Of a DNA stretch of 41,499 nucleotides, positions 56 through 40,835 are shown in pieces. The notes below the pieces were generated by a model, which worked only from the letters and a program-made list of their open reading frames with translations, did no database searches and was not told the DNA's origin. The position numbers and the translations under genes were made by a program. Source of the DNA: a virus; the IMG/VR virus record IMGVR_UViG_3300045988_023006, positions 1-41,499 of that record, one strand, 5' to 3'. Numbering within the stretch: the first letter of the stretch is position 1; each line of letters opens with the position of its first letter.

Positions 56-179
56 TGTGTCGGCCATTGGGGCTCCGGTGCCTGGTTTCCTCCAGGCCCT
101 GCTCAAGAAGTTGAAAGTACACGCTGAGGATACGGCAGCGGACAAGCTGCCGGGAGAGGAGGACAACAACAATGAGTAA
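1..179 (+). CDS. Holin, 3' portion (same gene as 41150..41499, joined across the circular junction)
   Basis: The frame from ATG 41150 continues through the 55-bp overlap to TAA 177-179. The product has hydrophobic helices (..LLVPVLVLVVVMLL.., ..YLVIVAVAAVV.., ..IVIIWLVINELLSILEN..) and an acidic tail. Its stop overlaps the endolysin ATG. Confidence 0.8.
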   Translation, partial: SIVIIWLVINELLSILENVSAIGAPVPGFLQALLKKLKVHAEDTAADKLPGEEDNNNE

Positions 180-855
180 GCGAGTGTACATCAGCCCCAG
201 CGACCAGACGGAAAACCGCTACGCCTGGGGCAATACCAACGAGCACGCCCAGTGCCAGAGGATCGCCGAGGCGGAGGCTGCCGCCCTGCGCCGCAGCGGC
301 GTGGAGGTGAAGCTGGCGGCCTTCGGCACCACCATGGCCCAGCGCTGCGCCGAGTCCGATGCCTGGGGCGCGGACATCCACAACTGCGTCCACACCAACG
401 CCTTTAACGGCAAGGTGTCTGGCACCCGGATGTTTTGCTACAGTGTCCCCGGCAAGGGGTACGACGCCTGCAAGGCGGTGTTTGACCAGCTGGCCCCGCT
501 GACGCCGGGAACGTCTGAAAACATCCAGGCCAACCCCCGGCTGTTCGAGGTGCGTGTACCTAATGCGCCGTCGGTGTACTGCGAGTGCGAGTTCCACGAC
601 GCCGCCGAGGGTGCCAAGTGGATCGTGGAGCACACCACGGATATCGGCGAGGCCATCGCCAAGGGCCTGTGCAAGTATCTGGGCGTGACCTACGTCCCGA
701 CCAAGCAGGAGTCCCCTAAGCCCGCCCAGCCGACCGGCGATAAGCTGTATCGCGTCCAGGTCGGCGCCTTCGCCGTCCGGGAAAACGCCGAGAAGATGCT
801 GAAGCGTTTGAAGGACGCCGGGTTTGACGGGTTCATCCGGGAAGGTTCGAGATGA
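172..855 (+). CDS. Endolysin: N-acetylmuramoyl-L-alanine amidase (Amidase_3-like) with C-terminal SPOR-like domain
   Basis: 227 aa. Amidase_3-type motifs (..CVHTNAFNG.., ..YCECEFHD..). P/Q/K linker, then YRVQVGAFAVRENAEKMLKRLKDAGFDGFI, typical of SPOR repeats. Lies next to the holin. Confidence 0.85.
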   Translation: MSKRVYISPSDQTENRYAWGNTNEHAQCQRIAEAEAAALRRSGVEVKLAAFGTTMAQRCAESDAWGADIHNCVHTNAFNGKVSGTRMFCYSVPGKGYDACKAVFDQLAPLTPGTSENIQANPRLFEVRVPNAPSVYCECEFHDAAEGAKWIVEHTTDIGEAIAKGLCKYLGVTYVPTKQESPKPAQPTGDKLYRVQVGAFAVRENAEKMLKRLKDAGFDGFIREGSR

Positions 856-960: not shown

Positions 961-1209
961 ATGATCGCCATGAATACAAATTACCGAGACATTCGCGCAA
1001 AACTGCGCAGCATGGCCCCTCAACGTGCCATTGATTACATCGCCGCGCTTGATCTTCCGGAAGACGAAGCGTTTTGCATCATCGCGTGCGACGTCAAGCA
1101 ACAATCCAGACAGCAGGTGGCAAACAGGCTGTTTGCGTCGGTCGAGTATGTCAAGAAGCGCCGCCGCAACGGTTACCAAAAGATTGCCGACCATATCAAA
1201 AACCCATAA
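961..1209 (+). CDS. Small HTH regulator, sigma-70 region-4-like
   Basis: 82 aa. ..SRQQVANRLFASVEYVKKRRRNGYQKIADHI resembles region 4.2-type HTH of small phage activators. Followed by a strong terminator. Confidence 0.45.
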   Translation: MIAMNTNYRDIRAKLRSMAPQRAIDYIAALDLPEDEAFCIIACDVKQQSRQQVANRLFASVEYVKKRRRNGYQKIADHIKNP

Positions 1210-1216
1210 AGTAAAG

Positions 1217-1259
1217 ACCCAACAAAGACCTTTTTCAGGCTCTTTGTTGGGTTTTTTTT
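1217..1259 (+). terminator. Rho-independent terminator
   Basis: 12-bp stem ACCCAACAAAGA (1217-1228) / TCTTTGTTGGGT (1241-1252), followed by a T8 run. Confidence 0.85.
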
Positions 1260-1295
1260 GCTGTATTTTATAGATATACAAGGGGGTGCGGCGAA

Positions 1296-1445
1296 ATGAG
1301 CGTAATGGAGCGGCTGTTGGCGTGTGGGTATACGGCGGATATGGCACGTGATATATGCAATCAATACGGATCTGACACCGCCGGATTGCTTCCCCTTGTG
1401 CGCATTGTAGAGCTCTTGCACGACGATAGGCGCGAATATGTATAG
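1296..1445 (+). CDS. Hypothetical 49-aa protein (not in ORF track)
   Basis: ATG 1296 preceded by AAGGGGGTG. Product MSVMERLLACGYTADMARDICNQYGSDTAGLLPLVRIVELLHDDRREYV. Its stop overlaps the next ATG (ATGTATAG). Confidence 0.5.
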   Translation: MSVMERLLACGYTADMARDICNQYGSDTAGLLPLVRIVELLHDDRREYV

Positions 1446-1815
1446 CTACTACAACGAGAACCCAAAAGGGAAAAACACAGGGGACTGTACCGTCAGAGCA
1501 ATATCAAAAGCCACCGGCAAGGACTGGGGCGAGACGTATTTGCGACTGTGCATCCAAGGATATCTTGACGGGGATATGCCGTCTGCAAATGCTTGCTGGG
1601 GCCGGTATCTCCGCAGCATCGGATACCGGCGGTACATCGTACCGGACACTTGCCCGGATTGCTACACGGTGGGACAGTTTGCGGAGGATCACCCGGTAGG
1701 CAACTATATTCTGGCCCTGTCCGGCCATGTGGTTTGCGTGCAAAATGGCACGATCTGGGACAGCTGGGACAGCAGCAACGAGAACGTATTGTATTACTGG
1801 GTTAAGGAGGACTGA
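1438..1815 (+). CDS. Hypothetical protein, possible papain-fold thiol peptidase/acyltransferase
   Basis: 125 aa. Ordered Cys (..NTGDCTVRAIS..), His (..LSGHVVCV..) and Asp (WDSWD), as in C39/BtrH/NlpC-like folds. Motif-level call only. Confidence 0.35.
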   Translation: MYSYYNENPKGKNTGDCTVRAISKATGKDWGETYLRLCIQGYLDGDMPSANACWGRYLRSIGYRRYIVPDTCPDCYTVGQFAEDHPVGNYILALSGHVVCVQNGTIWDSWDSSNENVLYYWVKED

Positions 1816-1817
1816 TT

Positions 1818-2249
1818 ATGGCTTACACACCTTACGGATGGCAGAACCCCTATTATCCACCCCCAATGCAGGATAACCTGATGCAGATGCGGCAAATGCA
1901 GCAACCACAGATGCAATCTCAAATTCCGCAGGCCCTTCAAAATCCGGTGGCGCAGAGCGGTGTACAGTGGGTCAGCGGCGAACAGGAGGCCCGAAACTGG
2001 ATGATCGCGCCCAACGCCGCCGTGGCGTTGTGGGACAGCTCCGCACCGACTGTGTATCTCAAACAGGCCGATGCAAGCGGCAAGCCGACGCTCAAAGTAT
2101 ACGACCTTGTAGAGCGGCTTGCAAGCGCCCCTGACGCGCAGAAAGCGCCCGCTGCGGAATATGTGACCCGTAAAGAGTTCGACGCGCTGGCGGCGCTTGT
2201 GAGCGAAATGAAGGGCAAGAAGCGCAAGGAGGAAAAGAGCGATGAATAA
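1818..2249 (+). CDS. Hypothetical Q/P/M-rich protein
   Basis: 143 aa with RBS AAGGAGG. Low-complexity N-terminus (..MQMRQMQQPQMQSQ..), a globular middle and a K/E-rich tail. Confidence 0.6.
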   Translation: MAYTPYGWQNPYYPPPMQDNLMQMRQMQQPQMQSQIPQALQNPVAQSGVQWVSGEQEARNWMIAPNAAVALWDSSAPTVYLKQADASGKPTLKVYDLVERLASAPDAQKAPAAEYVTRKEFDALAALVSEMKGKKRKEEKSDE

Positions 2250-2442
2250 TCCGTTTTTCGGTGCAATGGGCGGCGGCAACGGCTTTATGCAGATGGTGCA
2301 GCAGTTCCAGCAGTTCAAGGCAAATTTTCATGGCGACCCCAAAGCAGAGGTCGAAAAACTCTTGCAGAGCGGGAAACTCTCACAAGCTCAGCTGAACCAG
2401 TTGCAGCAGATGGCGAAGCAGTTCCAAAGCCTGATGCAGTAA
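2242..2442 (+). CDS. Hypothetical G/M/Q-rich small protein
   Basis: 66 aa. Its start overlaps the upstream stop by 8 nt (translational coupling). Confidence 0.55.
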   Translation: MNNPFFGAMGGGNGFMQMVQQFQQFKANFHGDPKAEVEKLLQSGKLSQAQLNQLQQMAKQFQSLMQ

Positions 2443-2496
2443 GCAAGTTTAAGCAAGTTTAAGCAAGTTTAAGCAAAGTTTAAGCAAAGTGTTTGC
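2440..2496. repeat. Intergenic tandem repeat (10-11-bp unit AAGCAAGTTT / AAGCAAAGTTT, about 5 copies)
   Basis: AAGCAAGTTT x3 (2441-2470), then AAGCAAAGTTT, then AAGCAAAGTGTTTGC. The array begins at the stop codon of the 66-aa gene. Confidence 0.9.
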
Positions 2497-2517
2497 TAAA
2501 TTATTAGGTTAATCAAT

Positions 2518-2531
2518 ATCGTGGCCACGAT
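2518..2531. promoter_or_regulatory. Perfect 14-bp palindrome ATCGTGGCCACGAT (operator-like)
   Basis: Self-complementary 14-mer lying between the tandem repeat and the RBS of the 2563 gene. Confidence 0.5.
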
Positions 2532-2562
2532 TTGATAATAAAAAACTGAAAGGAGTTTTTCT

Positions 2563-3309
2563 ATGTCTCTTTCTTCTGACGGCGCTCCCATGCTGACAAT
2601 GCCCGTGGCACCCACTAACTCCGGCGGCAACGGCGGTTTTGGATGGGATGGTAATGGCAGTTGGTTCATCATCATCCTGTTCCTGTTTGCCTTCCTTGGC
2701 TGGGGTAATAACGGCTGGGGCAACAACGGCGGCAATTCCGGCGGCGTGGTAGACGGCTATGTGCTGTCTTCCGATTTTGCCAACATTGAGCGCAAGATGG
2801 ATCTCATCAACGGTGGGCTGTGCGATGGCTTCTATGCCGCGAACACCACGCTGCTGAACGGCTTTGCCGGTGTCAACCAAAACATGAACAACGGTTTCCA
2901 GACCGCTGAACTGTCTCGCGCCAACCAGCAGGCCGCGCTGATGCAGCAGCTCAACGCCATGCAGATGCAGGCTGCCGAGTGCTGCTGCAACACCCAGCGC
3001 AGCATCGAGGGCGTGCGCTACGACATGGCCGCGCAGGCGTGCGACACGCGCAACACGGTGCAGAACGCGACCCGCGACATCGTGGAAAATCAGAACGCCA
3101 ACAGCCGCGCCATTCTGGACTTCCTGACCAACTCCAAGATGCGCGATCTGGAGAGTGCAAATCAGGAGCTGCGTCTGGCGGCGTCTCAGTCTGCGCAGAA
3201 CAACTATCTTATTTCGCAGCTTCGCCCGTGCCCTTCTCCCGCTTACATTACCTGCAACCCGTGGGCGGGTAGCGGCTATGGTGGATGTGGATCCGGTTGC
3301 GGCTGCTGA
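2563..3309 (+). CDS. Membrane protein with G/N/W-rich N-terminus, Q/N-rich helical core and Cys/Gly-rich tail
   Basis: 248 aa with RBS GAAAGGAG. One predicted TM helix (WFIIILFLFAFLGW). Central heptad-like Q/N/A-rich region containing a CCC triplet. C-terminus GSGYGGCGSGCGC. Confidence 0.65.
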   Translation: MSLSSDGAPMLTMPVAPTNSGGNGGFGWDGNGSWFIIILFLFAFLGWGNNGWGNNGGNSGGVVDGYVLSSDFANIERKMDLINGGLCDGFYAANTTLLNGFAGVNQNMNNGFQTAELSRANQQAALMQQLNAMQMQAAECCCNTQRSIEGVRYDMAAQACDTRNTVQNATRDIVENQNANSRAILDFLTNSKMRDLESANQELRLAASQSAQNNYLISQLRPCPSPAYITCNPWAGSGYGGCGSGCGC

Positions 3310-3390
3310 TAACTGCATAGCATAGCTTTTTGTTGGCAATGTTTTGTTAACGTCAACAAAATGTTCGGCCCCGTGCCGATACTAAACCAA

Positions 3391-3424
3391 AGCGGCGGGG
3401 CAATAGCCCTGCCGCTGATTTTAT
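3391..3424 (+). terminator. Rho-independent terminator
   Basis: AGCGGCGGGGC (3391-3401) / GCCCTGCCGCT (3406-3416), 11 bp with one G-T pair and loop AATA, followed by GATTTTAT. Confidence 0.8.
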
Positions 3425-3438
3425 GAAAGGAGTTTTCT

Positions 3439-3864
3439 ATGCCTGAATACACTGCGATTGCCACGCAGACTGTGGCGGCAAATCAGAATGTGCTTTTTAC
3501 CGAGGCACCGATCCCCTGCACAAAGGGCCTTATCACTCACCGGGTAGGCTCCGGCCTGTTTAACCTTCGCGGCAACTGCTCTCAGTGCCGCGCCCGCTAC
3601 AAGGTGGACTTTATCGGCAACATTGCCGTAAGCACCGGCGGGACCCCAGGCCCCATCTCCGTTGCCATTGCGGTTGACGGTGAACCCCTGCTGTCCTCCG
3701 TTGCGACGGTTACGCCCACGGCTGCGGAGGCGTTTTTTAACGCAGCGGCATCTGAGTACGTTGACGTTACAAAGGGCTGCTGCGCGTCGCTGTCCATCCG
3801 CAACGTGAGCGGCGAAGCCATTGACGTGAGAAACGCGAACCTTATCATTACCAGAGTTTGCTGA
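3439..3864 (+). CDS. All-beta protein resembling C1q/TNF-like jelly-roll domains of exosporium proteins (BclA-CTD / BxpB-ExsF type)
   Basis: 141 aa. Alternating beta-strand pattern (..YKVDFIGNIAVS..PISVAIAVDGEPL..ASLSIRNVSGEAIDVRNANLIITRV). Shares its RBS context with the 2563 gene. Motif-level resemblance only. Confidence 0.4.
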   Translation: MPEYTAIATQTVAANQNVLFTEAPIPCTKGLITHRVGSGLFNLRGNCSQCRARYKVDFIGNIAVSTGGTPGPISVAIAVDGEPLLSSVATVTPTAAEAFFNAAASEYVDVTKGCCASLSIRNVSGEAIDVRNANLIITRVC

Positions 3865-3878
3865 GAAAGGAGAACACA

Positions 3879-4247
3879 ATGGGAATGAAATCTATGTATA
3901 ATCTGCGCGACATGCTCTGCAAGGAGCTTGACGAAATCGCCCGCAAGGGTGAGCTTGGCGCGGGAGACCTCGATATCGCGCATAAGCTGACCGACACCAT
4001 CAAGAACATCGACAAGATCGAGACGCTTGAAGAGGGCGGTTATTTTAGCCGCTATCACGACGACGATATGCGCAATTCGTATGGGAGGGGCGTCTCTTAC
4101 GCGAGACGGCACTATGTCCGCGGGCATTACAGCCGCACGGACGCAACTGAGCATCTGCGCAGCCAGATCAACGATATGATGCGCGAGACTGACGATGACC
4201 GCATCAAGGATGCCCTGCGTCGTGCAATGGACATGATGGAGGAATAA
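3879..4247 (+). CDS. Hypothetical protein (acidic helical ends, basic R/Y/H-rich centre)
   Basis: 122 aa from ATG 3879 (RBS GAAAGGAG at good spacing). The track start at 3858 is less likely. Confidence 0.6.
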   Translation: MGMKSMYNLRDMLCKELDEIARKGELGAGDLDIAHKLTDTIKNIDKIETLEEGGYFSRYHDDDMRNSYGRGVSYARRHYVRGHYSRTDATEHLRSQINDMMRETDDDRIKDALRRAMDMMEE

Positions 4248-4262
4248 AGGGGGTAGGCCCCG

Positions 4263-4571
4263 ATGATCGACGAAAAGGAGCTGCAGCTTTGGATCTCTCG
4301 CCTGGAAACGGAAAAATCCAGCTGGACGAACTACGAAAAGCTGGCGACGCTGTATACCATCCAAAACCAAAACCGTGGGAAGGGCGAGCCGCCGGCGATG
4401 CCGCGATACTCTGCCGCGCCCGCAAAGGAGTACGGAGATAGCGATTTCCTCCGCGCGGTGGCCCGCGTTGACCCGGCCCGTGCGTGGGAAGTGATGGACG
4501 AACTCATGGACAGCTTGAAGGTCGTCAACGAGCGAGTGTATAACAGCGTTATGCGCAAGCTGGAAAAGTGA
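4263..4571 (+). CDS. Hypothetical protein
   Basis: 102 aa, last gene of the cargo cassette. Followed by a bidirectional terminator. Confidence 0.6.
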   Translation: MIDEKELQLWISRLETEKSSWTNYEKLATLYTIQNQNRGKGEPPAMPRYSAAPAKEYGDSDFLRAVARVDPARAWEVMDELMDSLKVVNERVYNSVMRKLEK

Positions 4572-4605
4572 AAAATCCCCCGTCATTTACGGCGGGGGAT
4601 TTTTT
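4571..4605. terminator. Bidirectional rho-independent terminator between convergent genes
   Basis: AAAAATCCCCCG (4571-4582) / CGGGGGATTTTT (4593-4604). A- and T-runs flank a GC stem, so it can work in both directions. Confidence 0.85.
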
Positions 4606-4647
4606 AGGCATATTTGCCCTTTATGTCCATGAAGGTAAAATATGCCT
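4606..4647. other. Candidate attP core: 42-bp near-perfect dyad around a central TC
   Basis: AGGCATATTTGCCCTTTATG-TC-CATGAAGGTAAAATATGCCT. By hand count 17 of 20 positions are symmetric, and the outer 10 bp are perfect. It abuts the integrase stop codon. Confidence 0.35.
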
Positions 4648-5944
4648 AACGCGGTGTTACAAAAAACGCGCCATCGTTGTCTGCATCAATCCGCCTGATG
4701 AAGCGCGTCCAAAATTCCTTTTTTTCGTTCCGCGAGTATGTATCATATTCGCCCAGCCCATCTTTTAATGCGTCAAGGTCTGTCTCTGGCTTTTCCTCCA
4801 CGGTTTCCAGTGCCCTTTTCAAACTCGCGTATTCCGCTTTATAATCGCCAAGCTCAATCAGATCGTTTAGGTATAGCGTTTTTAGCTTGCTCATTTTCTT
4901 TCGTATCGAGTCCGCGCTGTGCGTGGGCTTTTTTTCTGCCTTTTTATAGTACCGATTGTTCCGTTCTGCGATTCCCTCCATCTCGTGTAGTAGGTAGTCT
5001 TCCAGCGCATCTTCTCGGATCCTTTTTGTATGCGGGCAAGCGGAGTTGTCAAACATCCGCGTCCGGCATCGGTAGTATGTATATGTTTTTTTTACGGTTT
5101 CCGATTGCATCGTTTTCCCGCACTCTTTGCAGCGCAATATCCCGGAAAACAGATACACGCGATCCGTGCCAACTCCCGCACAGCGTTGTGACCGCTGGCG
5201 AATAATATCATTTACAAGGTCAAAGTCCTGTTTGCTCACCAGCGCGGGACAGGCATTTTCGATGCCGTACACCTCCCCGATGTAAAGACGGTTCCGGAAA
5301 TAGTTTACATACTTGTTATAAGCCCGGTCAATTCCCCATGTATCAAGCATATATCGCTTTACGGCAAGGACGCTTTTTAGCCGGATAAACGCGGCAAACA
5401 TATCTCGCGCCGCATCTGCCGTGCCGTTATCAATCTGGTATTGCCTGTCCTTGATGGCATAACCTAACGGTGCTTTTGAGCCTGCCGGCTGCCCTTTTGC
5501 CCGTTTCCCATCATTGATAAATTTGATTCGTTCGCTTGTGCGGTCGGCCTCATCTTGCGCAACGGAAAGCATGATATTGACCTTTAATCGCCCGGACGCG
5601 GTGCGCGTCTCGTAGTCCTCTTCCGTCGCTTGCCATGTTACGCCGTATCGGTCGAGCTGCGTTTGCACGTCATAATACCCCGCGACATTGCGGAACCAGC
5701 GGTCAAGCTTAATAAATAGAATCGTGTCTACCTTCCCCGCTTTGCAATCGCCCAGCAGCCGCAGGAGCGCCGGACGTTTTTTATACGGCTTTCGCGCGGA
5801 TATTCCCGCGTCCTCATAGATACCCGCCACGGTCATTTTGTGTTCTTGGGCATATCTTGTCAGCGCATCTCTTTGCTCTTGCAATGACAGGCCATGCCGC
5901 GCCTGTTCGTCGCTCGACACGCGGATATACAGTGCTGCTCTCAT
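4646..5944 (-). CDS. int: Large serine recombinase (phage integrase)
   Basis: 432 aa from ATG 5944 (MRAALYIRVSSDEQ.. is the resolvase catalytic Ser motif). Recombinase domain and Cys-rich zinc-ribbon (..CKECGK..YYRC..). The ATG overlaps the upstream stop (ATGA). Confidence 0.9.
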   Translation of the reverse strand: MRAALYIRVSSDEQARHGLSLQEQRDALTRYAQEHKMTVAGIYEDAGISARKPYKKRPALLRLLGDCKAGKVDTILFIKLDRWFRNVAGYYDVQTQLDRYGVTWQATEEDYETRTASGRLKVNIMLSVAQDEADRTSERIKFINDGKRAKGQPAGSKAPLGYAIKDRQYQIDNGTADAARDMFAAFIRLKSVLAVKRYMLDTWGIDRAYNKYVNYFRNRLYIGEVYGIENACPALVSKQDFDLVNDIIRQRSQRCAGVGTDRVYLFSGILRCKECGKTMQSETVKKTYTYYRCRTRMFDNSACPHTKRIREDALEDYLLHEMEGIAERNNRYYKKAEKKPTHSADSIRKKMSKLKTLYLNDLIELGDYKAEYASLKRALETVEEKPETDLDALKDGLGEYDTYSRNEKKEFWTRFIRRIDADNDGAFFVTPR

Positions 5945-9208: not shown

Positions 9209-9388
9209 ATGAGAAGCGCGATACAGTATAGCGAGCCGGAGCGCCCATTGGAGCCGAAGGACTACGATCTTCCCGTCTGCCCCGTGTGCGGGGAGGAGAC
9301 GGACACCTACTACAAAAACAAGGACGGCGTCATCGTGGGATGCGAGTTTTGCATCGACGCGGTGGACGCATGGGAGGAAAAGGAATGA
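9209..9388 (+). CDS. Small zinc-ribbon protein
   Basis: 59 aa from ATG 9209. Contains two CxxC pairs (CPVCGEE.., CEFCID..). Confidence 0.55.
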   Translation: MRSAIQYSEPERPLEPKDYDLPVCPVCGEETDTYYKNKDGVIVGCEFCIDAVDAWEEKE

Positions 9389-9876
9389 ATATGAGCTTGT
9401 ACCACATCGATCAGGAGCTGGAGAACCTGATCGACCAGGAAACCGGCGAGGTGCTTGATTTTGATGCGTTTGAGGCGCTGCAAATGGCGCGGGACGCCAA
9501 GATCGAGGGCGTACTCTGCTGGACAAAGAATCTGGCGGCGGAGGCAAAGGCTATCCGCGAGGAGGAGAAGGAGCTTGCCGAGCGGCGCAAGGCTATGGAG
9601 AGCAAGCGGGAAAAGCTGCTTGCCTATGCAGAACGGGCGCTGGGCGGCGCGGCGTTCCAGACGGCGCGGTGTGCCGTGACGTATCGCAAAAGCACGGCGG
9701 TGGAGATCACCGACATGGACGCTGTGGTGCAGTGGTGCATGGACAACGGCTACGACGGCAAGATCACCTTTGCCCAGCCCACGGTGAGTAAGACGGACAT
9801 CGCGCCGCTTCTCAAGTCCGGCGTGTCTGTGACCGGCGCGGAGCTGTGCGAGAAGCTGAACATGGGGGTGAAGTGA
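9385..9876 (+). CDS. Siphovirus Gp157-like protein
   Basis: 163 aa from ATG 9385 (ATGA overlap with the upstream stop). N-terminus MSLYHIDQELENLID.. and a coiled coil ..AKAIREEEKELAERRKAMESKREKL.., as in the Gp157 family found next to phage recombinases. Confidence 0.65.
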   Translation: MNMSLYHIDQELENLIDQETGEVLDFDAFEALQMARDAKIEGVLCWTKNLAAEAKAIREEEKELAERRKAMESKREKLLAYAERALGGAAFQTARCAVTYRKSTAVEITDMDAVVQWCMDNGYDGKITFAQPTVSKTDIAPLLKSGVSVTGAELCEKLNMGVK

Positions 9877-10526
9877 TGGATAACATGACGATCTACAATG
9901 CAGTTCGTAGTGTGCCGGACAGCGCCAAAAGCCGCATCGAGGCGGGGCGCTTGAAGGGCAAGACAGACATTAACCCCATGTGGCGCATCAAGGCGCTGAC
10001 AGAGCAGTTTGGGCCCTGCGGCTATGGCTGGAAATACGTTATCACTGACAAGAGGTTGGAGCAGGGCGCAAATGGCGAAGTAGCCGCATTTCTGGACATT
10101 GATCTGTTTGTAAAGGCAGGCTGCGCCTGGTCTGACGCTATCCCCGGCACTGGCGGCAGTGCGTTCGTGGCAAAGGAGAAGAACGGCCCATATACCTCCG
10201 ACGAGTGTTTTAAGATGGCGCTGACTGATGCTATCTCCGTGGCGTGTAAGGCGCTTGGATTTGGGGCGGACGTGTATTGGGACGCCGACAAGAGCAAGTA
10301 TGGCAAGCCGGATAAGTGCAAAAAGAAGCCGGATAACAAGGCAGATGCGCCGATGCTGTGCGAGCATTGCGGACTTCCCATTAAGTCGGTGAAGCGCGGG
10401 GACCGCGTGTATCCCACTAGCGAGATCGCGGAGAACTCCGTGAAGAAGTACGGCAAGCGGCTGTGCTGGGGCTGCATGAAGGCAGCCAACGCGACGGGGA
10501 ATAACCATGCAGCAGATAACGGTTGA
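9876..10526 (+). CDS. Rad52/Sak-family single-strand annealing protein with C-terminal zinc ribbon
   Basis: 216 aa from ATG 9876. ..LTEQFGPCGYGWKY.. and ..CFKMALTDAISVACKALGFGADVYW.. match Rad52/Sak hallmark motifs. C-terminus CEHCG..CWGC. Confidence 0.6.
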   Translation: MDNMTIYNAVRSVPDSAKSRIEAGRLKGKTDINPMWRIKALTEQFGPCGYGWKYVITDKRLEQGANGEVAAFLDIDLFVKAGCAWSDAIPGTGGSAFVAKEKNGPYTSDECFKMALTDAISVACKALGFGADVYWDADKSKYGKPDKCKKKPDNKADAPMLCEHCGLPIKSVKRGDRVYPTSEIAENSVKKYGKRLCWGCMKAANATGNNHAADNG

Positions 10527-38454: not shown

Positions 38455-38985
38455 ATGGCGCTAAAAAAGACAAATTATGTAAACGGGAAAACGGTTATAA
38501 CTGCGGAAAACTTAAACGATATACAAGATGCAATTATCGCACTGGAAAGCGCTGGTGATGACGGCACTCACCCCGTTTATTACATTGTCCTTGCTGGCAG
38601 CTACCCAAACTACACCTGCCCGGTGGCGATGGCCGACATCAAGGCGGCGTATGAGGCGGGTAAGGTGCTGGAATGCCGGTGCGCGATGGGACCATACACC
38701 GCAACGCTGCCACTATTCGTCCCAATGCCCAGTGCAAACACATGGATATTCTCCGGCTCCGGTGCGCTGACCGCAATGGATTTCCCGGCGCAATCGCTGA
38801 CTATCGCCATCGTCAATGGCACCGTGCAGGCAAGTGATACGCGACTGGCATCCAAAGATGATATCCCCGCCGCTCTGCCCAATCCCAACGCTCTGACGGT
38901 TAAGATTGGCAGCACTATCGTGACTTATGATGGCAGCAGCGCCCAGACCGTGGAGATAGCGGACGGCACGGAGGTGAGTTACTGA
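38455..38985 (+). CDS. Fibre-associated hypothetical protein
   Basis: 176 aa. The N-terminus ..NYVNGKTVITAENLNDIQDAIIALE.. is common at fibre protein N-termini. Confidence 0.55.
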   Translation: MALKKTNYVNGKTVITAENLNDIQDAIIALESAGDDGTHPVYYIVLAGSYPNYTCPVAMADIKAAYEAGKVLECRCAMGPYTATLPLFVPMPSANTWIFSGSGALTAMDFPAQSLTIAIVNGTVQASDTRLASKDDIPAALPNPNALTVKIGSTIVTYDGSSAQTVEIADGTEVSY

Positions 38986-40835
38986 TGCAAAAGAAACTGT
39001 ATGAAGAAGCCTCCGTACAGGCGATTGCAAACGCCATCCGGGCAAAGAACGGCGAGGCGACCACCTACAAAATCGGGGAGATGGCAGATGCTGTGCGGGC
39101 GCTCTCCGGGAGCGAAGCAGTCGAATGGCATCAGTGCCCGGAAGCGGTACGCAATTACCTTGCCAACGTGACCTATGACCCGAGCGACTATACGTCCTCG
39201 GCCATTGAGACCTATGCCACAGGAGACGTGCAGAGCAACCCAAACGGCGTGCAGGCTGGCGGGGTAGCGCACTACAACGAGGTGCCAAACGTAGAGACGC
39301 CGTGGGCAGCAGGCGGAAAGGCCGGGACGTTGAAACCACTGGATGCCGTGCGATGGATCAAATCGCCGACGCGGAACGCGAGAGACCTTGGAGGGTGGCC
39401 ATGCGACGGGGGAACAGTACAATACGGCAAGTTGTTCCGCGGCGGTGAGGTGGCAACGAGCGACACGGAGTTTGTTAGGACACTGCACGACGAAATCGGC
39501 ATCCGCGCCGAGCTGGAACTGCAGGGGACGGATGTGGCAGAGGATTACTCTGTAATCGGATCGGATGTGGACTTCTGTTGCCCGACGGATGGAGGTTCCT
39601 ACTGGGCCTACTATTCCATCACAAGCAAAGCGTCTATGAGACAGGCGTTCCGTTTTATCTTTGACAGCGTCGCCAGAGGCAGACCTGTGTATTTCCACTG
39701 CTCAGCTGGGGCGGACCGGACCGGCACAATCGCGTGCTTGATCGAGGCACTCCTCGGCATGAGCCAGAGTGACATTGACCGGGATTACGAGTTGACATCC
39801 TTCAACGGAGCTACCTATTTGCGCAAACGCTGTGGCCGCGAGTACGCAACAGATCAGTGGGAGTGTGGCTACAAAAACCTGATTACAGCGATCACCGCAC
39901 TCAGCGGTCAGACATTCCGCGATAAGGTGATAAATTACATTGCCTCGCTCGGTTTTACCGCAGCGGAGATCAATGGATTCCGCGCGGCCATGATCGATGG
40001 TACGCCTGAGACGGTATCGCCCGTTGTGGCGACGTACACGGTAAGTAAGTCCATCAGCGGTGCGGAGATCAGCAACAGCGCGACAAGCGCGACGCAATAT
40101 CAGCCGTACTCGGCAGAGATCGCACCGACCGGCGGGAAGGTCATCAGCAGCGTAAAAGTCATGATGGGAGGGCAAGACGTCACAGCGGAAGTATTTTCCG
40201 GGACGCAAGCGATCCGGCGGTACGCTGTGACCAAAACGCTGAAAAACTGCACGATCGACAACGCAAAAAAAGCGGCAGTAGACGGAGAAGGGTATGGCGC
40301 GACGATCACTCCCGTAGGCGGGTATACGCTTACCGGGGCGACGATAACAATCGTGATGGGAGGTGTCGACGTGTCGACATATTATTCTGGGGGCAAAATC
40401 GCGATCCCAAGTGTGACCGGGGACATTGCTATCACAGTGACGGCAGTGCCAACAACATCGGCTTATACAAACCTATTTGATCCAAGTGGCATCCACGCAG
40501 GATATCGTATCAACAGCGGCGCGGCGCTGGAAGCCAACTCTTCGCAGAATGTATCGAACAATATTGATCTCGGCGGAAGCGGCGTAACCGTGCGCATAAA
40601 AGGGTCTAAAGCAAACACGGATGCGTCAACATATCGAATCTGCTACTTCAACGGGAACAACTGGACCGGAGCAATACACCTTCAAAATGCTGATGGGTAC
40701 GCTTATGATGCCGTAACAGACACGATTACTTTCACGAGCAGCAGCAATGTGCTTCACACAAAGCTCAGGTTCAGTTATCCTTCGACAACAGATTCGGCGG
40801 CGATTGTGGTGACGGTCAACGAGCCGATTACATAA
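38985..40835 (+). CDS. Tail fibre-like protein carrying a tyrosine-phosphatase-fold (Y_phosphatase3-like, CX5R) domain, two Ig-like repeats and a C-terminal beta-rich domain
   Basis: 616 aa. Fibre-type N-terminus (..AIANAIRAKNGEATTYKIGEMADAVRAL). ..NARDLGGW.. and VYFHCSAGADRTGT (39696-39725 encodes HCSAGADRTG). Repeated ..ITP.GGY.L....I.V.MGG.DV.. modules. Confidence 0.7.
   Translation: MQKKLYEEASVQAIANAIRAKNGEATTYKIGEMADAVRALSGSEAVEWHQCPEAVRNYLANVTYDPSDYTSSAIETYATGDVQSNPNGVQAGGVAHYNEVPNVETPWAAGGKAGTLKPLDAVRWIKSPTRNARDLGGWPCDGGTVQYGKLFRGGEVATSDTEFVRTLHDEIGIRAELELQGTDVAEDYSVIGSDVDFCCPTDGGSYWAYYSITSKASMRQAFRFIFDSVARGRPVYFHCSAGADRTGTIACLIEALLGMSQSDIDRDYELTSFNGATYLRKRCGREYATDQWECGYKNLITAITALSGQTFRDKVINYIASLGFTAAEINGFRAAMIDGTPETVSPVVATYTVSKSISGAEISNSATSATQYQPYSAEIAPTGGKVISSVKVMMGGQDVTAEVFSGTQAIRRYAVTKTLKNCTIDNAKKAAVDGEGYGATITPVGGYTLTGATITIVMGGVDVSTYYSGGKIAIPSVTGDIAITVTAVPTTSAYTNLFDPSGIHAGYRINSGAALEANSSQNVSNNIDLGGSGVTVRIKGSKANTDASTYRICYFNGNNWTGAIHLQNADGYAYDAVTDTITFTSSSNVLHTKLRFSYPSTTDSAAIVVTVNEPIT

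What the first reader, a model, noticed from the sequence alone, without database searches (positions are those of the whole stretch)
961..4571. 3.6-kb self-contained cargo (moron) cassette between the endolysin and attP/integrase, encoding surface/spore-coat-like oddities
Seen: nine same-strand genes fill the slot between the lysis genes and the candidate attP. In the integrated prophage this cassette would be the extreme end, the classical moron position. The cassette has its own punctuation.
- A small sigma-region-4-like HTH (961..1209) with a strong terminator (1217-1259).
- A coupled block of 49-aa, 125-aa Cys/His peptidase-like, 143-aa Q/P/M-rich and 66-aa G/M/Q-rich proteins.
- An iteron-like tandem repeat plus a palindrome.
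- A 248-aa membrane protein with a Cys/Gly tail, followed by a terminator (3391-3424).
- A 141-aa TNF/C1q-like all-beta protein.
- Two further unknowns (122 and 102 aa), then a bidirectional terminator.

None of these is a recognisable virion, lysis, replication or known defence gene.

Inference: this is a lysogen-expressed conversion module. Low-complexity Q/G-rich proteins, a Cys-rich membrane protein and a BclA-CTD-like jelly roll together recall spore-coat/exosporium or cell-surface layers. The phage may therefore remodel the host or spore surface. Alternatively the set may be an uncharacterised exclusion system.
Basis: partly seen in the sequence, partly recalled or inferred. Interest (0 to 1): 0.7.

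Follow-up and report, generated by a model that had tools for sequence, protein, structure and literature searches.

The report
Mobile coat-like gene cassette in gut phages
The nine genes between the endolysin and the integration site are real and belong to a conserved, movable accessory gene block found in well over a hundred gut-phage sequences; its parts resemble spore-surface proteins, but its function is unknown and it is probably not a spore- or lysogeny-specific add-on.

Summary
All nine + strand ORFs, three terminators, the tandem repeat, the palindrome and attP are present as described. attP was mapped to window 4626-4628.

None of g2-g9 reaches a curated Pfam or NCBIfam cut-off, and none matches PADLOC or a solved structure by sequence.

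The genes are not a random set of morons. The order g3-g4-g5-g6-g7-g8(-g9) recurs in about 140 loci.

The block sits in at least four genomic contexts:
- after the endolysin, as here;
- between the tail fibre and holin genes;
- inside the head operon, in most IMG/VR hits, between the minor head protein and the scaffold;
- in virulent Clostridium perfringens phages, where near-identical relatives lack it.

A reduced core (g6 plus a DUF7841 protein) occurs in crAss-like phages.

A sigma-region-4-type HTH gene and an intrinsic terminator about 30-50 nt before the first gene travel with the block.

AlphaFold and Foldseek support two fold assignments. g7 is a TNF/C1q jelly roll closest to the exosporium proteins F-BclA, ExsFA/BxpB and BclA. 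g3 is a minimal Cys-His-Asp, papain-like enzyme with no close structural relative.

The "self-contained cargo cassette" reading is supported. The "lysogen-expressed spore-surface conversion" reading is weakened.

My best guess, at low confidence, is a late-expressed, membrane-anchored, Cys-rich self-assembling protein set.

The parts
961..1209 (+). g1: 82-aa sigma-70 region-4-type HTH, regulator candidate of the cassette
   Evidence: ORF. Sigma70_r4 E 0.012, below the Pfam cut-off; SigZ/ECF region-4 stretch weak. Positional equivalents upstream of g4 elsewhere: the L013 protein passes Pfam Sigma70_r4 (35 bits), the CPD1 protein hits Sigma70_r4_2 at 6e-5, and 72 IMG/VR loci carry a similar small HTH ORF.
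1217..1259 (+). intrinsic terminator after g1, 36 nt before g2
   Evidence: Sequence. Fold -25.7 kcal/mol, z -6.7, followed by T8. An equivalent hairpin plus T-run lies upstream of the g2/g3/g4 block in 65 of 102 loci, against 0 of 91 coding controls.
1296..1445 (+). g2: 49-aa protein, present only in the g1-g2-g3 variant of the cassette
   Evidence: No family match.
1438..1815 (+). g3: 125-aa predicted minimal papain-like Cys-His-Asp enzyme (peptidase, amidase or transglutaminase type)
   Evidence: phrog_3754 at 7e-35. D16, C17, H97 and D108 are invariant in 11 and in 121 sequences. AF2 model pLDDT 94.5, with Cys17 at a helix N-terminus and His97/Asp108 on strands. No significant PDB match; the weak hits are enriched for papain-like proteases and deubiquitinases. 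Its position within the cassette varies.
1818..2249 (+). g4: 143-aa core protein with a Q/P/Y-rich N-tail, a small conserved domain (invariant K82), a helix and a K/E-rich tail
   Evidence: phrog_21718 at 7e-31. Found in 17 of 18 first loci. 2018 clusters at 50% identity with E<=1e-3. Alignment. No PDB or Pfam match.
2242..2442 (+). g5: 66-aa M/Q/G-rich helical protein; the same slot is filled by family F5 in other variants
   Evidence: phrog_22984 at 5e-23. Synteny. Composition.
2440..2487 (.). tandem repeat TAAGCAAGTT x4.7 between g5 and g6
   Evidence: The same intergenic slot holds an HNH endonuclease gene in Dulem virus 33.
2513..2535 (.). palindrome (core ATCGTGGCCACGAT) upstream of g6, a possible operator or promoter spacer
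   Evidence: Function is inferred only.
2563..3309 (+). g6: 248-aa hallmark membrane protein with a Gly-rich N-end, one TM helix flanked by GWGNNGWG, a long helical region with invariant CCC, a P-x-P-x-P segment and a Cys/Gly tail
   Evidence: phrog_16490 at 2e-44. The exact protein is on >=1000 contigs. The family extends to C. perfringens and crAss-like phages. Alignment and invariants. Hydrophobic segment at residues 30-48. No PDB match.
3391..3416 (+). terminator-like hairpin between g6 and g7
   Evidence: Fold -24.8 kcal/mol, z -4.0.
3439..3864 (+). g7: 141-aa TNF/C1q-like jelly roll with an invariant CC motif; the slot is filled by the unrelated Cys-rich beta protein F14 in other variants
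   Evidence: phrog_20016 at 4e-50. AF2 pLDDT 87.8, pTM 0.81. Foldseek PDB top hits are the F-BclA C-terminal domain, ExsFA/BxpB and BclA (E 2e-7 to 3e-5, TM 0.65-0.76), followed by TNF/C1q proteins. BFVD holds many 130-145-aa phage proteins of this fold, some named 'BclA protein'. Invariant C114-C115. g7 and F14 are not detectably homologous.
3879..4247 (+). g8: 122-aa protein with helical ends and an R/Y/D/G-rich middle; related to F63/F64, and the slot is filled by a DUF7841 protein (F15) in other variants
   Evidence: phrog_28802 at 9e-10. The ATG start has a good RBS. hhalign g8~F63 gives prob 53% and F63~F64 gives 90%. F15 matches Pfam DUF7841.
4263..4571 (+). g9: 102-aa helical protein, last gene of this variant
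   Evidence: g9-like proteins occur in C. perfringens phages, and a remnant is kept in phiCP39-O.
4571..4604 (.). bidirectional terminator closing the cassette and the integrase gene
   Evidence: The combined 4565-4650 stretch folds at -44 kcal/mol on the + strand (z -9.1) and -36 on the - strand.
4605..4648 (.). attP: inverted repeat with the crossover at about 4626-4628
   Evidence: Homology to the integrase-side (spo0A) and g9-side prophage junctions breaks at 4626-4628.
172..855 (+). context: Amidase_3 + SPOR endolysin, end of the late operon
4646..5944 (-). context: large serine recombinase (integrase)

Best explanation
The region is one copy of a widespread, mobile accessory operon of gut-phage genomes.

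**Conserved plan**
- A small sigma-region-4-type HTH gene comes first.
- An intrinsic terminator follows, about 30-50 nt before the first gene of the operon.
- Then come g4 (Q/P/Y-rich tail plus a small domain), a small M/Q-rich helical protein (g5), the membrane protein g6 (one TM helix, a long helical region with an invariant CCC, and a Cys/Gly tail), a small Cys-bearing beta-sandwich (g7, a TNF/C1q jelly roll here) and a helical protein with an R/Y/D/G-rich middle (g8).
- A papain-like Cys-His-Asp enzyme (g3) sits at a variable position.

**Shown**
- The genes exist, are conserved and are syntenic.
- The block moves between genomic slots and is dispensable in C. perfringens phages.
- The g3 and g7 folds are supported by prediction.
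- The HTH and terminator travel with the block.

**Inferred mechanism**
- The products are made in high copy, mainly late in lytic growth.
- g6 anchors in the cytoplasmic membrane.
- g6, g7 (as a trimer, like other TNF-fold proteins) and the low-complexity partners g4, g5 and g8 self-assemble into a Cys-rich proteinaceous layer or complex.
- g3 trims or cross-links this assembly.
- The assembly uses the same kinds of parts as a spore exosporium but is not tied to spores.
- It would change the envelope of the infected or lysogenic cell, for example by excluding other phages, tuning lysis or protecting released material. It is not part of the virion proper.
For: **Conservation and synteny**
- The order g3-g4-g5-g6-g7-g8(-g9) holds in 18 genome and phage loci, down to 26% identity of g6.
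- It also holds in most of the 120 IMG/VR loci. The exact order g3 g4 g5 g6 g7 F63 was seen 40 times and g4 g5 g6 g7 F63 19 times.

**Mobility**
- After the endolysin and before the integrase: window, L001-L006, L012-L014.
- Between the tail fibre and holin genes: L007.
- Inside the head operon, as TerL-portal-minor head-[block]-tRNA-scaffold-MCP.
- In C. perfringens phages with no integrase seen in the regions examined.
- In a crAss-like phage next to the holin.

**Dispensability**
- CPD1 and PMQ04 carry the block (HMM); four further relatives carry at least the g6 homolog (tblastn).
- phiCP39-O lacks g4 to F14 and keeps a g9-like remnant, with flanks 92-95% identical. phiCP26F, 13O, 34O and 9O gave no g6 hit.

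**Late expression (indirect evidence)**
- The g3 start overlaps the minor-head stop by 1 nt in 40 of 46 loci.
- The crAss g6 homolog carries recoded in-frame stops, with the conserved Cys tail encoded after the stop. The review PMC10136315 states that recoding marks late structural and lysis genes.

**Own regulation**
- A hairpin plus T-run lies upstream in 65 of 102 loci against 0 of 91 controls, at a median of 30 nt from the start codon.
- 72 loci carry an HTH ORF, and the Sigma70_r4 match is significant in L013.

**High-copy, structural character**
- g2 and g4-g9 have strong ribosome-binding sites.
- The Cys motifs are invariant.
- The sequences are rich in low-complexity segments.

**Folds**
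- g7.
- g3.

**Localisation**
- None of the products except g6 has a strongly hydrophobic N-terminal segment (hydropathy only, no signal-peptide predictor was run). Partners of g6 would therefore have to meet it on the cytoplasmic side, or after lysis.
Against: - There is no expression, localisation or interaction data of any kind.
- g6 topology is ambiguous, because few charges flank the TM helix.
- g4, g5, g6, g8 and g9 were not modelled, so the assembly step is conjecture.
- Only g6 and a DUF7841 protein are demonstrably shared with crAss-like phages. The 'core' may therefore act without g4, g5 or g7.
- The head-operon position and the translational coupling to the minor head protein equally fit a virion-associated role.
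- The strong terminator just upstream leaves it unclear how the operon is transcribed.
- A TNF-like fold alone is common in phage receptor-binding, decoration and cement proteins.
Confidence: 0.35

Rival explanations
1. Virion-associated accessory set. g7 would be a trimeric capsid or tail decoration or adhesin. The low-complexity and membrane-active proteins (g4, g5, g6, g8) would be capsid-internal or ejection ('cargo') proteins, matured by the g3 peptidase. This is comparable in logic to decoration proteins, or to packaged accessory proteins such as the P1 Dar set (background knowledge).
For: - In the largest group the block sits between the minor head protein and the scaffold/MCP genes, with g3 translationally coupled to the minor head gene.
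- The ribosome-binding sites are strong.
- TNF-like jelly rolls are frequent in phage particle proteins (cyanophage A4 portal-tail hit).
- Dispensability is typical of decoration and cargo proteins.
- Two g4 relatives weakly hit phiKZ internal head proteins (E 0.0015, not significant).
Against: - The block keeps its composition while moving between head, tail/lysis and post-lysis slots and between sipho-like and crAss-like phages with unrelated particles.
- It has its own HTH and an upstream terminator, which insulates it from the operon it sits in.
- g6 has a classical TM helix.
- All the matching PHROG families are 'unknown function', not structural.
Confidence: 0.22
2. One reading: a lysogen-expressed conversion module that remodels the host or spore surface, with exosporium- or coat-like proteins supplied by the prophage.
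For: - In this phage the cassette is the outermost block of the prophage, next to attP.
- It has its own terminators and HTH.
- g7's best structural matches are exosporium proteins.
- The Cys-rich and Q-rich composition resembles coat proteins.
- The prophage integrates at the 3' end of spo0A by a large serine recombinase, so the host has the sporulation master regulator.
- All of the products except g6 appear cytoplasmic, as coat and exosporium proteins are in the mother cell (hydropathy only; the comparison is background knowledge).
Against: - The same block lies inside late head operons, coupled to a head gene.
- It is present in C. perfringens phages with no integrase in the regions examined.
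- It is also present in a Selenomonas contig, and its core in crAss-like phages (Crassvirales), whose hosts do not sporulate (host biology is background knowledge).
- GC content does not differ from the rest of the phage.
- There are no sequence-level matches to any coat or exosporium family.
Confidence: 0.15
3. Lysis or egress accessory. g6 would act like an i-spanin or lysis-timing membrane protein (N-terminal TM, coiled coil, Cys), with the other products as partners.
For: - The block is adjacent to holin/endolysin genes in the window, L007, L009, L012, L014, the C. perfringens phages (about 3 kb downstream) and crAss-like cr115_1, where it follows a holin and a LysB/FtsL-like protein.
- In some Bacteroidota-type loci a lipobox plus C-terminal TM protein lies two genes upstream (cluster 28).
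- g8 hits an Rz-like spanin PHROG weakly (E 0.003).
Against: - Most loci place the block in the head operon, not by the lysis genes.
- The hosts of the full cassette are mostly Clostridia, which are generally monoderm (background knowledge), where spanins are not needed.
- No lipoprotein partner is encoded in the cassette.
- It is dispensable in plaque-forming phages.
- The weak 'spike glycoprotein' and haemagglutinin hits are not significant (E 1.3-9) and lie in the long helical region, so they look like coiled-coil noise.
Confidence: 0.1
4. Superinfection-exclusion or other anti-competitor system.
For: - It is an accessory, mobile, membrane-anchored component sitting in moron-type slots.
- Known exclusion genes such as HK97 gp15 sit inside late operons (background knowledge).
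Against: - Known exclusion systems are one or two small proteins (background knowledge).
- There is no PADLOC hit.
- Six strongly translated, structural-looking proteins are not expected for exclusion.
Confidence: 0.08

Closest known systems
Morons / lysogenic-conversion cassettes of temperate phages (Hendrix-Juhala sense; lysin-to-attachment-site cargo of Firmicutes siphophages)
   Same: - It is an extra block inserted between conserved modules.
- It is present or absent among close relatives.
- It is bounded by terminators.
- Here it lies in the lysin-attP slot at the prophage end.
   Different: - It is a six- to nine-gene operon with deeply conserved internal order across very different phages.
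- It is also found in phages with no integrase in sight, and inside head operons with translational coupling.
- GC content is not distinct.
- Expression in lysogens is untested.
Bacillus exosporium proteins ExsFA/BxpB, BclA C-terminal domain and F-BclA of F-ENA appendages (PDB 7r1m, 8d02, 1wck, 9h38; Sleutel et al. 2025, PMC12357932)
   Same: - g7 has the same TNF/C1q-like jelly-roll fold and a similar size (TM 0.65-0.76).
- It is produced without a strongly hydrophobic N-terminal segment.
- It is accompanied by Cys-rich partners.
   Different: - Identity is 9-17%, with no sequence-family match.
- There is no collagen-like region.
- It is encoded by phages, including phages of non-sporulating hosts.
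- In other cassette variants the slot is filled by an unrelated beta protein (F14).
Papain-like (clan CA) cysteine peptidases / transglutaminase-type enzymes, e.g. the C39 bacteriocin-processing domain or spore-coat Tgl
   Same: - The Cys-His-Asp set is invariant, with Cys at a helix N-terminus and His/Asp on adjacent strands, at about 125 aa.
- It is co-encoded with Q-rich and K-rich proteins that could be substrates (inference).
   Different: - No significant sequence or structure match to any known member.
- The activity is unknown.
Two-component spanins (i-spanin Rz type)
   Same: g6 has an N-terminal TM helix followed by a long helical region with conserved Cys, and is often near lysis genes.
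   Different: - There is no o-spanin partner.
- The hosts are mostly Clostridia, generally monoderm.
- The gene is not tied to the lysis cassette.
- It is a much larger conserved protein with a Gly/Trp-flanked TM and a Cys/Gly tail.

Membership tests
Moron / accessory cargo cassette | Present or absent between otherwise near-identical phages, and lies between conserved modules | tested here: met
   C. perfringens phages: CPD1 and PMQ04 carry the block (HMM), and four further relatives carry the g6 homolog. phiCP39-O (HMM-checked) lacks it, and phiCP26F/13O/34O/9O show no g6 hit. Flanks are 92-95% identical. At least four different insertion contexts were found.
Moron / accessory cargo cassette | Own terminator and promoter | tested here: inconclusive
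   The terminators are strong and conserved. Only consensus-level promoter candidates were found, and the upstream terminator leaves about 30-40 nt before the first gene.
Moron / accessory cargo cassette | Expressed from the repressed prophage | not testable with these tools
   No transcriptome data. Indirect evidence points to late lytic expression in other phages.
Moron / accessory cargo cassette | Base composition distinct from the host phage | tested here: not met
   GC is 0.52-0.565 across 1-5 kb, within the range of the rest of the window.
BclA-C / ExsFA-BxpB exosporium jelly-roll proteins | TNF/C1q-like jelly-roll fold | tested here: met
   AF2 pLDDT 87.8. The top Foldseek PDB hits are 9h38, 9h3d, 7r1m, 8d02 and 1wck.
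BclA-C / ExsFA-BxpB exosporium jelly-roll proteins | Sequence-level family membership | tested here: not met
   No Pfam, NCBIfam or PDB sequence or profile hit. Structural alignments show 9-17% identity.
BclA-C / ExsFA-BxpB exosporium jelly-roll proteins | Collagen-like repeat region (BclA type), or location in a spore exosporium | tested here: not met
   g7 is 141 aa with no G-x-y repeats. The gene is phage-borne. Localisation is not testable.
Papain-like cysteine peptidase (clan CA, incl. C39) | Conserved catalytic Cys and His (plus Asp/Asn) on the papain topology | tested here: met
   C17, H97 and D108 are invariant in 121 sequences. Cys lies at a helix N-terminus, and His and Asp lie on strands.
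Papain-like cysteine peptidase (clan CA, incl. C39) | Significant similarity to a known member | tested here: not met
   Best Foldseek E is 0.18, with papain-like hits at TM <=0.40. No Pfam or PDB sequence hit.
Spanin (i-spanin/o-spanin) | Partner outer-membrane lipoprotein gene, and a diderm host | tested here: not met
   No ORF with a strongly hydrophobic N-terminal (lipoprotein-signal-like) segment was seen in the cassette. Host bins are Oscillospiraceae/Clostridia.
Known anti-phage defence systems | Match to a PADLOC model | tested here: not met
   0 hits for all nine proteins.
Sigma-70 region 4 HTH (g1) | Pfam Sigma70_r4 at or above the gathering score | tested here: inconclusive
   g1 scores 15.5 bits against a cut-off of 24.1. 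The positional equivalent in L013 scores 35 bits, and the CPD1 equivalent hits Sigma70_r4_2 at 6e-5.

The most novel reading that the evidence does not exclude
Tailed phages of gut anaerobes carry a portable 'coat kit'. This would be a membrane anchor (g6), an exosporium-type TNF-fold trimer (g7), low-complexity matrix proteins (g4, g5, g8) and a papain-like processing or cross-linking enzyme (g3), switched on by its own small sigma-like HTH. The kit would build a cross-linked proteinaceous shell in the infected cell, around membranes, progeny particles or, in spore-formers, the forespore. It would be a virus-encoded analogue of exosporium assembly that affects phage persistence or transmission. 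In this phage it would be combined with integration into spo0A.
Probability: 0.12. Interest if true: 0.85.

Novelty: categorically new. Interest (0 to 1): 0.62.

Why it matters
**Abundance and spread**
- The exact g6 protein is on at least 1000 contigs, and g9 is listed in 939 index blocks of the contig collection.
- The g4 family has about 2000 clusters at 50% identity.
- The cassette spans temperate Oscillospiraceae phages, cultured C. perfringens phages and, in reduced form, crAss-like phages.

**Unknown function**
- Every member is annotated as 'hypothetical' or with a chance label. The crAss-like g6 homolog, for example, is called 'spike protein/glycoprotein'.

**What a defined function would give**
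- It would annotate thousands of gut-virome genes at once.
- It could reveal a new late or accessory phage function built from spore-surface-like parts.

**Testability**
- The presence/absence polymorphism in cultured C. perfringens phages makes the question directly testable.
- The spo0A integration site gives this phage a possible link to sporulation control.

Tried and rejected
- **Family searches:** Pfam, NCBIfam, PADLOC and PHROGs on all nine proteins returned only unknown-function PHROGs.
- **PDB by sequence or profile:** searches for g3, g7, g4 and g6 found nothing significant. The weak 'spike glycoprotein' and haemagglutinin hits to g6 (E 1.3-9) lie in the long helical region and look like coiled-coil noise, which probably explains the crAss annotation.
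- **Foldseek for g3:** no hit with E<0.1, so C39 or transglutaminase membership is rejected as unproven.
- **Profile-profile tests:** g7~F14, g8~F15, g5~F5 and g1~F11 were all negative, so these are called positional analogues rather than homologs. Only F63~F64 (90%) and g8~F63 (53%) show any signal.
- **crAss gp44 against the F14 and g7 profiles:** negative.
- **Alignment-based locus search with the g6 alignment:** failed because no stretch was conserved enough. It was replaced by a DNA motif scan for GWGNNGWGN.
- **First terminator scan:** it required perfect stems and missed bulged hairpins. It was redone with RNAfold.
- **Integrase look-up:** the first look-up from the GTG start found nothing. 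The ATG start worked.
- **Literature searches:** DUF7841, the C. perfringens phages, crAss 'spike protein' and phage BclA gave no functional study of these genes.
- **'Random set of morons':** rejected on synteny.
- **'Known defence system':** rejected on PADLOC.
- **'Spanin':** considered and down-weighted.
- **Small HExxH proteins near the block:** one set belongs to the head-tail region and is not part of the cassette.

Full report

Yes. The ORF list gives nine consecutive + strand ORFs:

| Gene | Coordinates | Length |
|---|---|---|
| g1 | 961-1209 | 82 aa |
| g2 | 1296-1445 | 49 aa |
| g3 | 1438-1815 | 125 aa |
| g4 | 1818-2249 | 143 aa |
| g5 | 2242-2442 | 66 aa |
| g6 | 2563-3309 | 248 aa |
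| g7 | 3439-3864 | 141 aa |
| g8 | 3879-4247 | 122 aa |
| g9 | 4263-4571 | 102 aa |

- For g8 the ATG at 3879 has the ribosome-binding site. An upstream TTG would give 129 aa.
- g2 and g4-g9 have strong Shine-Dalgarno sequences. g2/g3 and g4/g5 overlap.
- The block lies between an Amidase_3+SPOR endolysin at 172-855 and a large serine recombinase on the minus strand.
- Three terminators fold far better than shuffled controls:
  - 1217-1259: -25.7 kcal/mol, z -6.7, followed by T8.
  - 3391-3416: -24.8 kcal/mol, z -4.0.
  - 4571-4604: bidirectional.
- The tandem repeat TAAGCAAGTT x4.7 lies at 2440-2487. A palindrome around 2513-2535 lies between g5 and g6.
- No curated Pfam, NCBIfam or PADLOC match exists for g2-g9. 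g3-g8 fall in PHROG families of unknown function at E <= 1e-9; g9 matches one only weakly (E 3.6e-4), and g2 matches nothing.
- g1 resembles sigma-70 region 4 only below threshold.

**2. attP and the prophage end**

- Exact-protein look-ups recovered both integrated junctions.
- On one side, the integrase gene end overlaps by 4 nt the end of a 253-aa Response_reg+Spo0A_C gene (L143, L145, L147, L151).
- On the other side, g9 is followed directly by host genes (L154, L156, L157).
- Homology to window 4401-4800 breaks at 4626-4628. This is inside the inverted repeat 4605-4648.
The cassette is the outermost block of the prophage, and the phage integrates at the 3' end of spo0A.

**3. The genes are one conserved unit**

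- A genome scan with g6 gave 17 loci in Oscillospiraceae, Clostridia, Lachnospiraceae, Bacilli, Selenomonas and Phocaeicola bins.
- tblastn and neighbourhood clustering showed the same order g3-g4-g5-g6-g7-g8(-g9), even where g6 is only 26% identical.
- Dulem virus 33, at about 70% nucleotide identity, has the same order. It carries an HNH endonuclease inserted exactly at the g5-g6 repeat region.
- A DNA motif scan of IMG/VR for the g6 motif GWGNNGWGN gave 120 loci. With HMMs of each family, the order g3 g4 g5 g6 g7 F63 was seen 40 times and g4 g5 g6 g7 F63 19 times. Most other architectures are loci cut short at a locus end.
- Some slots are filled by alternative families:
  - g5 or F5.
  - g7 or the Cys-rich beta protein F14.
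  - g8/F63/F64 or the DUF7841 protein F15.
- Profile-profile tests relate F63 to F64, and more weakly g8 to F63. They do not relate g7 to F14 or g8 to F15.
- g3 is placed before g4, after the HTH, or after g8 in different variants.
- The families are large. The exact g6 protein is on at least 1000 contigs, and g4 has 2018 50%-identity clusters at E<=1e-3.

**4. The unit is mobile and dispensable**

The block occupies different slots:
- After the endolysin and before the integrase: window, L001-L006, L012-L014.
- Between tail-fibre genes and the holin/CHAP endolysin: L007.
- After lysis genes and before early genes on the same strand: L009 and the C. perfringens phages CPD1 and PMQ04.
- In the majority of IMG/VR loci, inside the head operon as TerL - portal - minor head protein - [block] - tRNA (or RAGATH-21) - scaffold - major head protein - adaptor.

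Further points:
- In 40 of 46 head-operon loci the g3 start overlaps the minor-head stop by one base.
- Among C. perfringens siphophages whose flanks are 92-95% identical, CPD1 and PMQ04 carry the block (HMM). 17DYC, XP41-N3, HMD-PC1 and CPQ4 carry at least the g6 homolog.
- phiCP39-O lacks g4 to F14 and keeps only a g9-like remnant, gp44. phiCP26F, 13O, 34O and 9O gave no g6 hit and cover only 63-68% of the region.
- A reduced core is present in crAss-like phages. In cr115_1 the order is holin, a LysB/FtsL-like protein, a DUF7841 protein (1.9e-42) and a full-architecture g6 homolog.
- That g6 homolog is read through two in-frame stops, and the conserved Cys/Gly tail is encoded after the second. 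A Crassvirales review states that such recoding marks late structural and lysis genes (PMC10136315).

**5. The unit carries its own regulatory punctuation**

- A hairpin (dG <= -12 kcal/mol) followed by a T-run lies within 260 nt upstream of the g2/g3/g4 block in 65 of 102 loci. The figure is 0 of 91 for equal-sized coding controls. The median distance to the start codon is 30 nt.
- A small HTH ORF precedes it. 72 IMG/VR loci have one similar to that of L104, and in 47 of them it ends 60-120 nt before g4.
- The L013 equivalent passes the Pfam Sigma70_r4 threshold, and the CPD1 equivalent hits Sigma70_r4_2 at 6e-5.
- The window's g1 plus terminator is therefore part of the cassette, not of the lysis operon.
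- How transcription enters g2/g4 is open. It could be a promoter overlapping the terminator, for example TTGTTG-17-TTTATA in the window (by eye). It could also be regulated read-through.
- Short direct repeats sit near the start in L104 (AGTCATAG x3) and between g5 and g6 in the window.

**6. What the proteins look like**

- **g7.** The AlphaFold2 model has pLDDT 87.8 and pTM 0.81 and is all-beta.
  - Its best PDB matches are the F-BclA C-terminal domain (9h38, E 2e-7), ExsFA/BxpB (7r1m, 8d02, 9h3d) and BclA (1wck, 3twi), at TM 0.65-0.76. EDA, 4-1BBL and C1q domains follow.
  - BFVD holds many stand-alone 130-145-aa phage proteins of this fold, some already named 'BclA protein'.
  - C114-C115 are invariant.
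- **g3.** The model has pLDDT 94.5.
  - D16, C17, H97 and D108 are invariant in 121 sequences.
  - Cys17 starts a helix, and His97 and Asp108 lie on neighbouring strands.
  - No PDB hit is significant. The weak hits are mostly papain-like proteases and deubiquitinases.
- **g6.**
  - It has a Gly-rich N-end and one TM helix flanked by GWGNNGWG.
  - A long helical region carries the conserved GLCDGFY motif and the invariant CCC.
  - It ends with SQ..Q, P-x-P-x-P and a Cys/Gly tail.
- **g4.** It has a Q/P/Y-rich N-tail, a roughly 55-aa domain with invariant K82, a YVT..EFDAL helix and a K/E tail.
- **g8-type proteins.** They have helical ends and an R/Y/D/G-rich middle with a recurring RRGV.GTG.Y motif (by eye).
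- **Hydrophobic N-termini.** Only g6 has a strongly hydrophobic segment. No signal-peptide predictor was run.

**7. Interpretation**

*Firmly supported:* this is a self-contained, mobile, dispensable accessory operon with conserved internal order and its own HTH and terminator.

*Weakened:* the idea that it is specifically a lysogen-expressed spore or cell-surface conversion module. The same block sits in late head operons, in phages with no integrase in sight, and in part in phages of non-sporulating Bacteroidota.

- The prophage-end position.
- The spo0A integration site.
- The exosporium-type fold of g7.
- The coat-like composition.

*My best mechanistic guess (confidence about 0.35):*
- The products are made in high copy, mainly late.
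- g6 anchors in the membrane and, with g7 trimers and the low-complexity partners, forms a Cys-rich assembly.
- g3 processes or cross-links that assembly.
- The assembly changes the infected-cell envelope rather than the virion.

*Rivals:*
- Virion-associated decoration or cargo proteins: 0.22.
- Lysogenic or spore-surface conversion: 0.15.
- Lysis accessory or spanin-like function: 0.10.
- Exclusion: 0.08.

None can be excluded without expression and localisation data.

**8. Novelty**

- No paper in the searchable library describes these genes.
- Existing labels are 'hypothetical', 'BclA protein' or 'spike protein/glycoprotein'.
- The kind of element, a phage accessory cassette, is known. A conserved multi-gene block of this composition matches no described phage module.
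- I therefore rate it categorically new in content. The function remains unproven.

Noticed in passing
window 4605-4648 (attP); loci L143, L145, L147, L151 at 9296-10057: The prophage integrates at the 3' end of the host spo0A gene. The serine integrase gene end overlaps by 4 nt the end of a 253-aa Response_reg+Spo0A_C gene. The crossover maps to window 4626-4628. The g9-side junctions show two different host flanks (L154 against L156/L157), which was not resolved. Whether Spo0A's C-terminus is altered, or the element excises during sporulation, was not examined.
   Followed up: partly
window 38985-40835: A 616-aa tail-region protein carries a Y_phosphatase3 domain (HCSAGADRTG, a CX5R phosphatase motif). 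Close relatives carry a Pect-lyase_RHGA_epim tail protein in the same place, which suggests swapping of the receptor-binding module.
   Followed up: no
L001 6873-7424 (Dulem virus 33); window 2440-2535: An endonuclease gene is inserted on the opposite strand between g5 and g6, exactly where the window has the tandem repeat and palindrome. Other loci have insertions inside the cassette: L044 has a 280-aa ORF between g6 and g7, and L056 has two reverse ORFs between g3 and g4.
   Followed up: partly
L034 4127-4198, L075 9464-9531, L101 2616-2692: In head-operon loci the cassette is followed by a tRNA gene or, in L101, by a RAGATH-21 RNA (86.9 bits), before the scaffold gene.
   Followed up: partly
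L020 3406-4326 (crAss-like cr115_1 gp43): The g6 homolog is read through two in-frame stop codons, and the family's conserved Cys/Gly tail is encoded after the second stop. The neighbouring lysis-regulator-like gene has eight in-frame stops.
   Followed up: yes
L011 1986-5002 (Lachnospiraceae MAG contig): A full cassette variant (g4 F5 g6 F14 F15 g3) appears with an EF-G fragment upstream and SecD/SecF-like genes downstream, identified by eye. No phage genes were seen in the stretch examined. It may be a remnant, a domesticated copy or a mis-assembly.
   Followed up: no
L142 6429-6665 (phiCP39-O gp44) vs L021 7971-10304: Cassette-negative C. perfringens phage phiCP39-O keeps a 78-aa remnant matching the g9-like gene. 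This suggests the cassette was lost by deletion rather than never acquired.
   Followed up: yes
L104 6090-6145: Three direct repeats of AGTCATAG lie between the conserved terminator and the g4 start codon. They could be a binding site for the upstream HTH protein.
   Followed up: no
L104 5510-5815 and equivalents: In head-operon loci a 101-aa protein with an N-terminal TM helix and a coiled coil sits between g3 and the HTH gene. It has no Pfam match, and there is no counterpart in the window.
   Followed up: partly
L017 7755-8210, L026, L074, L087: Bacteroidota-type variants (g6 with F14) have a 143-151-aa HECGH-motif protein four to five genes downstream. It may be a metallopeptidase counterpart of g3.
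   Followed up: no
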